Below the pieces are notes generated by a model. It was not told the DNA's origin, did no database searches, and saw nothing but the letters and a program-made list of their open reading frames with translations. The position numbers and the translations under genes were made by a program. From NCBI RefSeq assembly GCF_050320075.1, contig NZ_CP190018.1: 64,000 bases of DNA; one strand, 5' to 3'. Below are positions 62,294 through 64,000 of the stretch, one piece after another (position 1 is the stretch's first letter; every line of letters begins with the position of its first letter). The DNA is from Escherichia coli (lineage in GTDB: Bacteria > Pseudomonadota > Gammaproteobacteria > Enterobacterales > Enterobacteriaceae).

Positions 62294-63847
62294 ATGCAAA
62301 TGATTACCTCGCGACAAAACAGATTATTACGATTCCTTTTACCACGAAGGGAATATACGACTATTGTTACGATTGCCGGCTATTTAAATGTTTCGGAAAA
62401 AACCATTCAACGTGATTTACGTTTACTTGAGCAATGGCTGGAACAATGGCGAATAACCGTTGAGAAGCGTGCTGGCGCGGGTGTGATGTTAGACTCGAAG
62501 AATATTACTGATTTGCTGCATCTTGATCATTTGTTGGGAGCAGAATGTGAAGAGATTGATGGTGTAATGAATAATGCCAGGCGCGTTAAAATAGCGTCGC
62601 AGTTATTAAGTGAAACACCGAATGAAACGTCGATCAGTAAATTGTCAGAGCGCTATTTTATCAGTGGAGCCTCTATTGTTAATGACCTGAGAGTGATTGA
62701 GTCCTGGCTTGCGCCGTTGGGGTTATCATTGATCCGCAGCCCAAGTGGTACGCATATTGAAGGTAGTGAAGGGCAAGTCCGACAGGCAATGGCATTACTG
62801 ATTAACGGCATTATTAACCATAATGAGCCGCAAGGTGTCGTGTATTCACGTCTGGATCCCGGAAGTTATAAAGCATTAGTCCATTATTTTGGAGAAGAAG
62901 AGGTGTTATTTGTCCAGTCATTGTTACTGGATATGGAAAATGAATTAAGTTGGTCTTTGGGAGAGCCTTATTACGTTAACATTTTTACTCACATCCTTAT
63001 TATGATGTATCGCAACACGCACGGGAATGCGTTATCCAGAGAAGAAGATCAAACCAGGCAATATGATGAAAATATCTTTAATGTTGCCAGTCAGATGATT
63101 CATAAGATAGAACAACGAATTGCACATACATTGCCCGATGATGAAGTCTGGTTTATTTATCAATATATCATTTCATCAGGTGTGGCGATTGATGGACAAA
63201 AAGATGTGAGCATTATTTCACATATGCAGGCCAGCAATGAAGCGCGTCTGATTACCTGGCGTTTAATTACGGTATTCAGTGACATCGTGGACTGCGATTT
63301 TAGTGAAGACAGCGCATTATATGATGGCTTGTTGGTTCATATTAAGCCGCTGATTAACCGACTAAATTATCGCATTCATATCCGTAATCCATTGCTGGAA
63401 GATATTAAAGCAGAATTAGCGGATGTCTGGCGGTTGACGCAATATGTGGTGAATCAGGTATTTAAAACCTGGGGTGAGAATGCAGTGAGCGAGGATGAAG
63501 TAGGTTACCTGACCGTTCATTTTCAGGCTGCGATGGAGCGGCAAATTGCCCGTAAACGTGTATTACTGGTCTGTTCAACCGGAATCGGAACTTCGCATCT
63601 ACTGAAAAGCCGTATTCTGCGAGCATTTCCTGAATGGACGATTGTTGATGTTATTTCAGCAGCGAATTTATCACAGGTTTTGCCTGACAATATCGAACTG
63701 ATTATTTCGACCATTAATTTGCCTACAGTCACTATGCCGGTCGCTTATGTTACCGCTTTTTTTAATGATGCCGATATTAAGCGGGTCACTGAAATGGTGA
63801 TTACGGAAAAATTACATCATGCGACATCTCGGGTCGTTGAAATTTAA
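62294..63847 (+). CDS. PRD/EIIB-domain transcriptional regulator (Mga/MtlR/LicR-type)
   Basis: 517-aa ORF: N-terminal HTH (TIAGYLNVSEKTIQRDLRLLEQ), central PRD-like region, C-terminal PTS EIIB-like motif (VLLVCSTGIGTSHLLKSRIL). Confidence 0.7.
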   Translation: MQMITSRQNRLLRFLLPRREYTTIVTIAGYLNVSEKTIQRDLRLLEQWLEQWRITVEKRAGAGVMLDSKNITDLLHLDHLLGAECEEIDGVMNNARRVKIASQLLSETPNETSISKLSERYFISGASIVNDLRVIESWLAPLGLSLIRSPSGTHIEGSEGQVRQAMALLINGIINHNEPQGVVYSRLDPGSYKALVHYFGEEEVLFVQSLLLDMENELSWSLGEPYYVNIFTHILIMMYRNTHGNALSREEDQTRQYDENIFNVASQMIHKIEQRIAHTLPDDEVWFIYQYIISSGVAIDGQKDVSIISHMQASNEARLITWRLITVFSDIVDCDFSEDSALYDGLLVHIKPLINRLNYRIHIRNPLLEDIKAELADVWRLTQYVVNQVFKTWGENAVSEDEVGYLTVHFQAAMERQIARKRVLLVCSTGIGTSHLLKSRILRAFPEWTIVDVISAANLSQVLPDNIELIISTINLPTVTMPVAYVTAFFNDADIKRVTEMVITEKLHHATSRVVEI

Positions 63848-63873
63848 TGTCAGAATTTTATGAGGTATGACGA

Positions 63874-64000
63874 ATGGACATAACAAAAATCCTGAATACG
63901 AATCGCGTTATTTTAGATATGCAAGCGACGAATAAAGCGGAGGCGATTGAAGAATTAACTAATCTTCTCAAAAAAGATGGTGCGATCGATTGTCGGGAAA
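63874..64000 (+). CDS. PTS EIIA component (fructose/mannitol-type), N-terminal fragment (3' end outside window)
   Basis: ATG at 63874 with GAGG upstream; translation MDITKILNTNRVILDMQATNKAEAIEELTNLLKKDGAIDCRE is typical of an EIIA(Fru/Mtl/Ntr) N-terminus; runs off the window. Confidence 0.6.
   Translation, partial: MDITKILNTNRVILDMQATNKAEAIEELTNLLKKDGAIDCRE

What the first reader, a model, noticed from the sequence alone, without database searches (positions are those of the whole stretch)
62294..64000. PTS regulator/EIIA module immediately downstream of yicI
Directly seen: a 517-aa HTH-PRD-EIIB-type regulator followed by an EIIA-type gene start. As far as I recall, the K-12 neighbour of yicI is not a PTS module. 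Inference: strain-specific sugar-utilisation island continuing beyond the window.
Basis: partly seen in the sequence, partly recalled or inferred. Interest (0 to 1): 0.3.

Follow-up and report, generated by a model that had tools for sequence, protein, structure and literature searches.

The report
Start of the known frz operon

Summary
Window 62294-63847 (+) encodes a 517-aa regulator with HTH_11, Mga-HTH, two PRDs and an EIIB-like domain. At 63874 a PTS EIIA (fructose/mannitol type) gene starts and is cut by the window end.

In 100%-identical genomes the cluster continues for 8 genes: regulator, EIIA, EIIB, EIIC, two class II aldolases, a ROK kinase and a D-lyxose/D-mannose isomerase. It fills about 7.3 kb between yicI and yicH, which are 52 bp apart in K-12.

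This is the published frz operon of ExPEC strain BEN2908 (Rouquet 2009). It has the same site and gene order, and the regulator is 99% identical. The published frz PCR primers match the window exactly and give the published 843-bp amplicon.

The island is not strain-specific. It is complete in 1601 of 5426 complete E. coli genomes, always at this site. Frz-like clusters also occur in Klebsiella aerogenes, Salmonella, Pectobacterium, Pantoea, Erwinia and Vibrio.

The regulator is a DNA-binding PRD activator, not a BglG-type RNA antiterminator as the genome annotation names it.

One small addition is a motif upstream of the regulator, TGTCC-N7/8-GGACA-N3-TTTAGTATTG. It is invariant in eight genera and is a candidate operator. 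The transported sugar remains unknown.

The parts
62013..62045 (+). Hairpin just after the yicI stop codon (GCCGGATACG...CGTATCCGG), probably the yicI terminator. Homology with the K-12 yicI/yicH spacer ends here, so the left edge of the frz island is at about 62045/62046.
   Evidence: Alignments with K-12 and BEN2908. K-12 has the same stem with a different loop. No direct repeats, integrase or tRNA lie at the junction.
62119..62129 (+). AAATGTGATCT, a match to one half of the CRP-site consensus. It is a candidate cAMP-CRP half-site about 51 bp upstream of the palindrome. The second half-site is poor in E. coli.
   Evidence: The core AATGTGATCTG is kept in E. coli, Salmonella, K. aerogenes and Erwinia, and is degenerate in Pectobacterium. 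The CRP consensus is from my own knowledge. Function is inferred only.
62173..62189 (+). Palindrome TGTCC-N7-GGACA, the candidate FrzR operator. It is also the 'terminator-like' site reported by the consensus scan.
   Evidence: The arms are invariant and the spacer varies in 8 genera of Gammaproteobacteria. A second copy precedes the EIIA2-EIIB-EIIC genes in Vibrio salinus. It occurs once in the 64-kb window, against 0.15 expected.
62193..62227 (+). Invariant block TTTAGTATTG followed by a candidate sigma-70 promoter: weak -35 TTGTTG (62200-62205), a 16-nt spacer and -10 TATATT (62222-62227).
   Evidence: TTTAGTATTG and TAnnTT are invariant columns in alignment A2 of 9 sequences. The spacing is 16-17 nt in all of them. 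The promoter was not found by the stricter consensus scan. It is inferred, not mapped.
62294..63847 (+). frzR, the 517-aa PRD-containing DNA-binding regulator and first gene of the frz operon. Candidate phosphorylation sites are His233 (PRD1), His349 and His409 (PRD2) and Cys427 (EIIB-like P-loop VCSTGIGTS). Tyr291 replaces the second PRD1 histidine.
   Evidence: It is 509/516 identical to the BEN2908 protein. The published frz PCR primers match 62699-62718 (+) and 63522-63541 (-) exactly and give an 843-bp amplicon.
63874..64000 (+). The 5' end (42 codons) of the frz EIIA gene (fructose/mannitol-type PTS EIIA), cut by the window end. A GAGG ribosome-binding site lies at 63862-63865.
   Evidence: The full 156-aa protein in L001 matches PTS_EIIA_2 at 120 bits. 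Its active-site His67 (AIPH) lies beyond the window.

Best explanation
Window 62046-64000 is the promoter-proximal end of the frz operon. This is a roughly 7.3-kb, 8-gene accessory cluster between yicI and yicH, first described in avian ExPEC strain BEN2908. It is used as a virulence/fitness marker in APEC and ExPEC typing.

Shown here:
- The first gene encodes FrzR, a regulator with two N-terminal DNA-binding domains (HTH_11 and Mga), two PRDs and an EIIB-like domain.
- The second gene encodes the EIIA of a fructose-family PTS.
- EIIB, EIIC, two class II ketose-bisphosphate aldolases with intact zinc-ligand motifs, a ROK sugar kinase and a D-lyxose/D-mannose isomerase follow beyond the window.

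Inferred:
- FrzR binds as a dimer to the conserved palindrome TGTCC-N7-GGACA just upstream of a weak -35 element and activates a sigma-70 promoter. That promoter drives frzR itself and the rest of the operon.
- FrzR activity is set by the PTS phosphorylation state, as in MtlR/LicR/ManR-type activators. HPr~P would phosphorylate a PRD2 histidine (His349 or His409) when preferred sugars are absent, which activates FrzR.
- The Frz EIIA/EIIB would phosphorylate Cys427 or His233 when the Frz substrate is absent, which inactivates it.
- The transporter takes up and phosphorylates a still unidentified ketose-like sugar. After a second phosphorylation, the aldolases cleave it to triose phosphates.
For: Identity with frz:
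- The site and gene order are the same as in BEN2908.
- The regulator is 99% identical to the BEN2908 protein.
- GR27 'yicH..yicI = frz operon' is listed in PMC12928451.
- The published frz primers match exactly and give the published 843-bp product.

PRD histidines and the P-loop cysteine:
- The alignment to the LicT PRDs (PDB 1tlv) places FrzR His233, His349 and His409 on conserved LicT histidines.
- It places Tyr291 where LicT has the second PRD1 histidine.

DNA-binding type:
- There is no CAT domain.
- The N-terminus is similar to AtxA (4r6i) and AcpB (9atx).

Operon structure:
- frzR and the EIIA gene are 26 nt apart with no terminator between them.

Operator and promoter:
- The footprint is invariant in 8 genera whose regulators are 53-78% identical.
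- A second copy lies in front of the transporter genes in Vibrio salinus.

Conserved core:
- Regulator, EIIA, EIIB, EIIC and aldolase are kept from E. coli to Paenibacillus.
- Both aldolases keep the LDHG, TAHG and LHGGS motifs.
Against: - Only 1.3 of the 8 genes lie inside the window. The rest is read from 100%-identical genomes.
- The C-terminal EIIA-like domain of classical MtlR/LicR/ManR regulators is absent, so the phosphorylation logic may differ.
- The Pfam PTS_IIB hit is marginal (24.2 bits against a cut-off of 23.6).
- The promoter was not picked up by the consensus scan, and no transcription start is known to me.
- The operon has no PfkB-type kinase to make a bisphosphate from the PTS product, so the pathway is incomplete as written.
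- The papers I could read name no substrate. The reported phenotypes concern stress fitness and the type 1 fimbrial switch rather than growth on a sugar.
- The original paper (Rouquet 2009) is not in the library, so I could not check what it says about the promoter.
Confidence: 0.85

Rival explanations
1. The regulator is an RNA-binding BglG/LicT-type antiterminator, as PGAP names it. It would act on the hairpin at 62173-62189 in the leader RNA.
For: RefSeq calls it a 'BglG family transcription antiterminator'. It has two PRDs that align with those of LicT. A terminator-like hairpin followed by a T-run lies upstream of the gene.
Against: - No CAT RNA-binding domain was found. The N-terminal 170 residues are HTH_11 plus Mga DNA-binding domains.
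- At 517 aa, the protein is about twice the size of the LicT and GlcT antiterminator models (272-273 positions).
- In the other seven genera the hairpin is not followed by a T-run.
- Its arms are invariant rather than covarying.
- It lies upstream of the conserved -35/-10 elements.
Confidence: 0.03
2. The Frz PTS is mainly a sensory or regulatory phosphorelay rather than a catabolic pathway. On this view, its phosphorylation state and FrzR alter other genes, such as the fim switch, and no sugar is consumed in quantity.
For: - Reviews report that deleting frz lowers type 1 fimbriae production and shifts fimS towards OFF (PMC8777976; PMC6727828).
- They also report that frz aids survival in late stationary phase under oxygen restriction.
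- No substrate is reported.
- The pathway lacks the kinase needed to make a ketose bisphosphate.
Against: - The transporter is complete, with the EIIA active-site His, the EIIB Cys and the EIIC domain all present.
- The two aldolases look catalytically intact, and a kinase and an isomerase are co-transcribed with them.
- The regulator-PTS-aldolase core is kept across distant bacteria. In some, pentose-phosphate-pathway genes replace the aldolases. This is typical of a catabolic cluster.
Confidence: 0.2
3. The island is a recent, strain-specific horizontal acquisition.
For: It is absent from K-12 and from 70% of complete genomes. The frzR, EIIA and EIIB genes have 41-44% G+C, against 52% for yicI and 54% for yicH.
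Against: - It is present and complete at the same site in 1601 of 5426 genomes, in at least two sequence variants (259 genomes at >=99% identity, 1347 at 95-99%).
- No integrase, tRNA or direct repeats lie at the junctions.
- K. aerogenes carries yicJ-yicI-frz in the same order, and a Salmonella isolate has frz next to yicJI. Old presence followed by loss in some lineages is therefore at least as likely as a recent gain.
Confidence: 0.03

Closest known systems
frz operon of ExPEC/APEC strain BEN2908 (Rouquet et al., J Bacteriol 2009; GR27 in PMC12928451)
   Same: - The chromosomal site (yicI/yicH) is the same.
- The same 8 genes occur in the same order.
- The regulator is 509/516 identical.
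- The island is about 98% identical in nucleotides to B2 strains such as CFT073 and 536.
- The published frz PCR primers match exactly.
   Different: This is an allelic variant only. The window's allele belongs to a minority group: 259 genomes at >=99% identity, against 1347 at 95-99%. There are seven amino-acid differences in FrzR, all within residues 49-82.
MtlR/LicR/ManR-type PRD-containing transcriptional activators of Firmicutes (COG3711)
   Same: - The domain order is HTH, Mga-like HTH, PRD1, PRD2, EIIB(Gat)-like domain with a P-loop cysteine.
- The gene is encoded next to the PTS it presumably controls.
- JGI names FrzR homologues 'activator of the mannose operon'.
- Firmicute homologues are 40% identical over the whole FrzR length.
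   Different: - FrzR ends after the EIIB-like domain, and the C-terminal EIIA-like domain is missing.
- PRD1 keeps only one of its two histidines.
- I did not compare FrzR directly with the B. subtilis proteins. Their phosphorylation sites are from my own knowledge.
Mga/AtxA/AcpB PRD-containing virulence regulators
   Same: The five-domain architecture and size (about 480-530 aa) are the same, with no EIIA domain. Sequence matches to AtxA (4r6i, E 1.9e-6) and AcpB (9atx, E 2.5e-5) are detectable. From my memory of the abstract, Rouquet et al. called FrzR an activator 'of the MgA family'.
   Different: - The match to the NCBIfam AcpB/EbpR/MafR subfamily is below its cut-off (82 bits against 130) and covers the N-terminus only.
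- FrzR keeps a canonical EIIB P-loop cysteine.
- FrzR sits in a PTS operon.
Cryptic fructose-like PTS operons of E. coli K-12 (frv, frw, fry)
   Same: The EIIA, EIIB and EIIC belong to the fructose family. The best NCBIfam matches of Frz EIIB and EIIC are K-12 fructose-like models.
   Different: - All equivalog scores are below their cut-offs, so these are paralogues and not the same systems.
- FrvR has no PRD and no detectable similarity to FrzR (E 0.95).

Membership tests
frz operon (ExPEC, Rouquet 2009) | Inserted between yicI and yicH | tested here: met
   The left junction lies at about window 62045. The right junction is at the yicH stop codon in the 100%-identical genome L001. BEN2908 is the same. 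K-12 has 52 bp there instead.
frz operon (ExPEC, Rouquet 2009) | Gene content and order: PTS activator, EIIA, EIIB, EIIC (fructose family), two class II ketose-bisphosphate aldolases, ROK kinase, cupin protein | tested here: met
   Pfam and NCBIfam hits on all 8 products of L001, with the same order in BEN2908. Only the regulator and 42 codons of EIIA are inside the window. The published gene list itself is from my memory of the abstract.
frz operon (ExPEC, Rouquet 2009) | Near-identity to the type-strain sequence, and a match to the diagnostic frz PCR | tested here: met
   The regulator is 509/516 identical. The primers from PMC6238794 match 62699-62718 and 63522-63541 with 0 mismatches and give 843 bp, as published.
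frz operon (ExPEC, Rouquet 2009) | Phenotype: fitness under oxygen restriction or in late stationary phase, and a bias of the fim switch towards ON | not testable with these tools
   Known only from the literature.
MtlR/LicR/ManR-type PRD activators | N-terminal HTH plus Mga-like DNA-binding domains | tested here: met
   HTH_11 at residues 7-63 and Mga at 100-169.
MtlR/LicR/ManR-type PRD activators | Two PRDs with conserved phosphorylatable histidines | tested here: met
   PRD is found in two stretches. His233, His349 and His409 align with LicT histidines. The fourth position is Tyr291.
MtlR/LicR/ManR-type PRD activators | EIIB(Gat)-like domain with a cysteine | tested here: met
   PTS_IIB at residues 422-498, just above the cut-off (24.2 bits against 23.6). 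The P-loop is LLVC427STGIGTSH.
MtlR/LicR/ManR-type PRD activators | C-terminal EIIA(Mtl/Fru)-like domain | tested here: not met
   The protein ends at residue 517 with no PF00359 hit. Firmicute homologues have about 140 extra residues, which Pfam does not recognise as EIIA either.
MtlR/LicR/ManR-type PRD activators | Activity controlled by phosphorylation by HPr and the cognate EIIA/EIIB | not testable with these tools
   Inferred from the conserved residues only.
BglG/SacY/LicT RNA-binding antiterminators | N-terminal CAT RNA-binding domain | tested here: not met
   No CAT_RBD hit at E <= 0.01. The N-terminus holds HTH domains.
BglG/SacY/LicT RNA-binding antiterminators | RAT sequence overlapping an intrinsic terminator in the leader of the target | tested here: not met
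   The only terminator-like site (62173-62189) is a palindrome with invariant arms. It has no T-run in the other genera and lies upstream of the conserved -35/-10 elements. Rfam finds nothing.
Mga/AtxA/AcpB PRD-containing virulence regulators | Score above the NCBIfam AcpB/EbpR/MafR subfamily cut-off | tested here: not met
   82.3 bits against a cut-off of 130, covering residues 5-164 only. The architecture is the same.
PTS EIIA, fructose/mannitol family (second gene) | PTS_EIIA_2 fold and an active-site histidine | tested here: met
   The full-length orthologue scores 120 bits on PF00359 and 126.9 bits on TIGR00848 (cut-off 103.5). His67 lies in the motif AIPH. Only residues 1-42 are in the window, and they are identical.

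The most novel reading that the evidence does not exclude
The invariant motif TGTCC-N7/8-GGACA-N3-TTTAGTATTG, just upstream of a weak sigma-70 promoter, may be the operator of FrzR-type regulators. These would form a clade in Enterobacterales and Vibrionaceae of ManR/LicR-like activators that have lost the EIIA domain. If this has not been described, it gives a direct handle for finding the unknown inducer and substrate of the frz PTS. A reporter fusion to this promoter could be screened against rare ketoses. That would allow a test of how a sugar signal reaches the type 1 fimbrial switch in ExPEC.
Probability: 0.3. Interest if true: 0.3.

Novelty: already known. Interest (0 to 1): 0.12.

Why it matters
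The frz operon is an established fitness and virulence-associated marker of extraintestinal pathogenic and avian pathogenic E. coli. Finding it in this window says something about the lineage of the strain and nothing new about biology.

Two points may still be useful to annotators and to people working on frz:
- The RefSeq product name 'BglG family transcription antiterminator' is misleading, because the protein has DNA-binding domains and no RNA-binding domain.
- A deeply conserved candidate operator and promoter upstream of frzR could be used to look for the still unknown inducing sugar.

Tried and rejected
1. Gene fission. I asked whether the stand-alone EIIA after frzR is the split-off C-terminal domain of a longer ManR-like regulator. 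This is rejected. Frz EIIA has no similarity to the C-terminal extensions of the 653-684-aa Firmicute homologues (best E 2.8). Pfam does not see EIIA in those extensions. Frz EIIA passes the transporter-type fructose IIA model. The two EIIAs in Vibrio salinus are paralogues of each other, 75% identical.

2. BglG-type antitermination on the upstream hairpin. Rejected for the reasons given under the rivals.

3. A known RNA element in 61900-64000. Rfam at E <= 1 gives only a chance hit (rliB, 18 bits against a gathering score of 40).

4. FrvR of K-12 as a paralogue of FrzR. There is no similarity (E 0.95).

5. One of the two aldolases as a non-catalytic pseudoenzyme. Both keep the LDHG, TAHG and LHGGS motifs.

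6. A full CRP site in the leader. Only one good half-site is present in E. coli, so I keep it as a weak candidate.

7. Reading Rouquet et al. 2009 (doi 10.1128/JB.00103-09, PMC2698472). The paper is not held in the library. Its content is cited through later papers and, where marked, from my memory of the abstract.

8. Literature searches for a frz substrate or for 'frzR' found nothing beyond the 2009 work and marker surveys.
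Full report
**1. Observation**

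The ORF listing finds a 517-aa ORF at 62294..63847 on the + strand. Pfam places these domains in it:
- HTH_11 at residues 7-63
- Mga helix-turn-helix at residues 100-169
- two PRD stretches (E 1.9e-30)
- a PTS_IIB-type domain at residues 422-498, just above its cut-off

There is no EIIA domain and no CAT RNA-binding domain.

Twenty-six bases after the stop codon, behind a GAGG ribosome-binding site, an ATG at 63874 opens a reading frame that runs off the window. Its 42 codons are identical to the start of a 156-aa protein in 100%-identical genomes. That protein is a PTS_EIIA_2 protein of the fructose IIA type.

**2. What lies beyond the window**

Megablast against 5426 complete E. coli genomes finds many 100%-identical copies. 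In one of them (CFSAN061763, locus L001) the cluster has eight co-directional genes:
- the regulator
- EIIA
- EIIB
- EIIC (fructose family)
- two class II ketose-bisphosphate aldolases
- a ROK-family sugar kinase
- a D-lyxose/D-mannose isomerase (a cupin-fold protein)

The cluster ends 43 bp before the stop codon of the convergent gene yicH. In K-12 MG1655, yicI and yicH are only 52 bp apart.

Homology with K-12 stops just after the hairpin that follows yicI, at about window 62045. It resumes at the yicH stop codon. No direct repeats, integrase or tRNA lie at the junctions. The island is about 7.3 kb long.

**3. Identity**

This is the frz operon. A 2026 genome paper on the avian ExPEC strain BEN2908 lists genomic region GR27, bounded by yicH and yicI (7227 bp), as 'frz operon' and cites Rouquet et al. 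2009 (PMC12928451).

Three further results agree:
- The BEN2908 chromosome in RefSeq shows the same eight genes at that place.
- Its regulator is 509/516 identical to the window's protein.
- The frz primers used in APEC virulence-gene typing (PMC6238794) match window 62699-62718 and 63522-63541 without mismatch. They predict the published 843-bp amplicon, which lies entirely inside the ORF of this finding.

Later papers summarise the known biology of frz:
- It promotes fitness in late stationary phase, under oxygen restriction and in serum or the gut.
- It favours the ON state of the type 1 fimbrial switch.
- It is rare in non-pathogenic avian strains (5%) and common in the most virulent group (75%).
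- One review lists its function as not clearly known.

I could not read the 2009 paper itself.

**4. Distribution**

The regulator/EIIA segment occurs in 1606 of 5426 complete genomes. The whole 7.3-kb island occurs in 1601, with one copy per genome, at this chromosomal site.

Carriers include CFT073, 536, NC101, JJ1887 and BEN2908. PMC12928451 types CFT073 and BEN2908 as phylogroup B2; the phylogroup of the other three is from my own knowledge. SMS-3-5, which I know as an environmental phylogroup F strain, carries it too.

Two allele groups are visible. 259 genomes are >=99% identical to the window's version and 1347 are 95-99% identical. The island is accessory but lineage-wide, not strain-specific.

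**5. Relatives outside E. coli**

Regulators of 517-527 aa with 53-78% identity occur in Salmonella enterica, Phytobacter, Klebsiella aerogenes, Citrobacter, Pectobacterium, Brenneria, Erwinia, Pantoea, Sodalis, Vibrio and Celerinatantimonas. Firmicute homologues (Paenibacillus, Priestia, Peribacillus) are 40% identical and about 140 residues longer.

Gene neighbourhoods show a conserved core of regulator, EIIA, EIIB, EIIC and one or two class II aldolases. In Vibrio and Celerinatantimonas, pentose-phosphate-pathway genes take the place of the aldolases.

The ROK kinase and the isomerase are present only in E. coli, Salmonella and K. aerogenes. K. aerogenes has yicJ-yicI-frz in the E. coli order. 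The Salmonella isolate has frz just upstream of yicJI.

The G+C content of the island is mosaic. It is 41-44% for frzR, EIIA and EIIB, and 50-56% for the remaining genes. I cannot tell old presence with loss from repeated gain.

**6. The regulator**

The RefSeq name 'BglG family transcription antiterminator' is misleading, because the protein has DNA-binding domains in place of the CAT domain.

The alignment with the LicT PRDs (PDB 1tlv) puts His233 (PRD1) and His349 and His409 (PRD2) on conserved LicT histidines. Tyr291 stands where LicT has the second PRD1 histidine. The EIIB-like domain has the P-loop LLVC427STGIGTSH.

The architecture equals that of AtxA, Mga and AcpB, which give weak sequence matches. 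The score on the NCBIfam subfamily model is below its cut-off. The architecture also equals that of MtlR/LicR/ManR activators minus their C-terminal EIIA-like domain. FrvR of K-12 is unrelated.

**7. A conserved upstream motif**

The 294-bp yicI-frzR spacer is nearly identical in BEN2908. Comparing the regions upstream of the regulator in eight genera shows these invariant blocks (alignment A2):
- TGTCC, then 7-8 variable bases, then GGACA
- three variable bases
- TTTAGTATTG
- about 19 bases
- TAnnTT

In the window these are 62173-62189 (the palindrome), 62193-62202, a -35-like TTGTTG at 62200-62205 and a -10 TATATT at 62222-62227.

The composite motif occurs once per locus. The exception is Vibrio salinus, where a second copy precedes a second EIIA-EIIB-EIIC unit. 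The bare palindrome occurs once in the 64-kb window, against 0.15 expected.

The consensus scan had flagged this palindrome as terminator-like. However, its arms never vary, the T-run is absent in the other genera, and it lies upstream of the conserved promoter elements. I therefore read it as a protein-binding site, most likely the FrzR operator.

A CRP-like half-site (AAATGTGATCT, 62119-62129) is conserved in several Enterobacterales. It lacks a good second half in E. coli. All of this section is inference.

**8. Mechanism**

Shown:
- a complete fructose-family PTS, with EIIA His67, EIIB Cys9 in CTAGIAHT and an EIIC
- two aldolases with intact zinc-ligand motifs
- a ROK kinase and an aldose-ketose isomerase
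- all of these behind a PRD regulator

Inferred, by analogy with MtlR/LicR/ManR (from my own knowledge):
- FrzR activates its own operon from the conserved operator.
- HPr~P acts on PRD2 and activates FrzR.
- The Frz EIIA/EIIB act on Cys427 or His233 and inactivate it when the substrate is absent.

The substrate is unknown. The operon also lacks the PfkB-type kinase expected between a PTS product and an aldolase substrate. A mainly regulatory role therefore remains a live alternative.

**9. Verdict**

The feature is already known. Interest is low. The conserved candidate operator and the corrected functional class of the regulator are the only additions.

Noticed in passing
window 46664-57899 (selC tRNA-Sec at about 57902-57996, minus strand): An 11.2-kb insert abuts the 3' end of selC and is flanked by a 23-bp repeat (46641-46663 and 57900-57922). 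It is absent from the otherwise near-identical (>99.9%) genome CFSAN061763. Only 31 of 5426 complete genomes carry it whole, SMS-3-5 among them. It is annotated as a P4-like satellite (tyrosine integrase, primase-helicase, Sid, Icd-like) carrying a SIR2-family protein, possibly an anti-phage cargo.
   Followed up: partly
window 11826-12594: An IS1 copy (769 bp) is inserted between a hypothetical gene and uhpA. It is not present at this place in CFSAN061763.
   Followed up: partly
window about 35201-42163: An eilA (HilA-family regulator) gene lies next to an eip-type cluster of type III secretion translocator genes: SipD/IpaD-like, a hypothetical gene, SipB-like and a SycD/LcrH chaperone. They lie between iatC and yicS. 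The sipB-like gene (39637-41418) is intact here but is split by IS1 in CFSAN061763.
   Followed up: no
window about 24020-35149: A giant inverse-autotransporter adhesin gene, iatC (about 11.1 kb), has many tandem repeats of about 291 bp that are 83-87% identical to each other. They are visible as a ladder of self-hits.
   Followed up: no
window about 21742-22402: A RelE/ParE-family toxin gene and an HTH antitoxin gene are inserted between yicN and nepI. They are not present in the K-12 arrangement of this region.
   Followed up: no
L010 (Klebsiella aerogenes) 4008-14946; L005 (Salmonella enterica) 741-12294: The yicJI (xyloside transporter and alpha-xylosidase) genes and the frz cluster are neighbours in other genera too. 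They are in the same order in K. aerogenes and in the opposite order in a Salmonella isolate, next to a transposase fragment. This suggests an old linkage, or joint transfer, of the two sugar modules.
   Followed up: partly
L001 14795-21738 (the frz island; window 62294 onwards): The island has a mosaic base composition. G+C is 41-44% for frzR, EIIA and EIIB, and 50-56% for EIIC, the aldolases, the kinase and the isomerase.
   Followed up: no
L008 (Vibrio salinus) 11584-13118: There are two tandem EIIA genes, 75% identical to each other. The second is preceded by its own exact copy of the TGTCC-N8-GGACA/TTTAGTATTGT motif, so the transporter genes there have a separate promoter that probably depends on the regulator.
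   Followed up: partly
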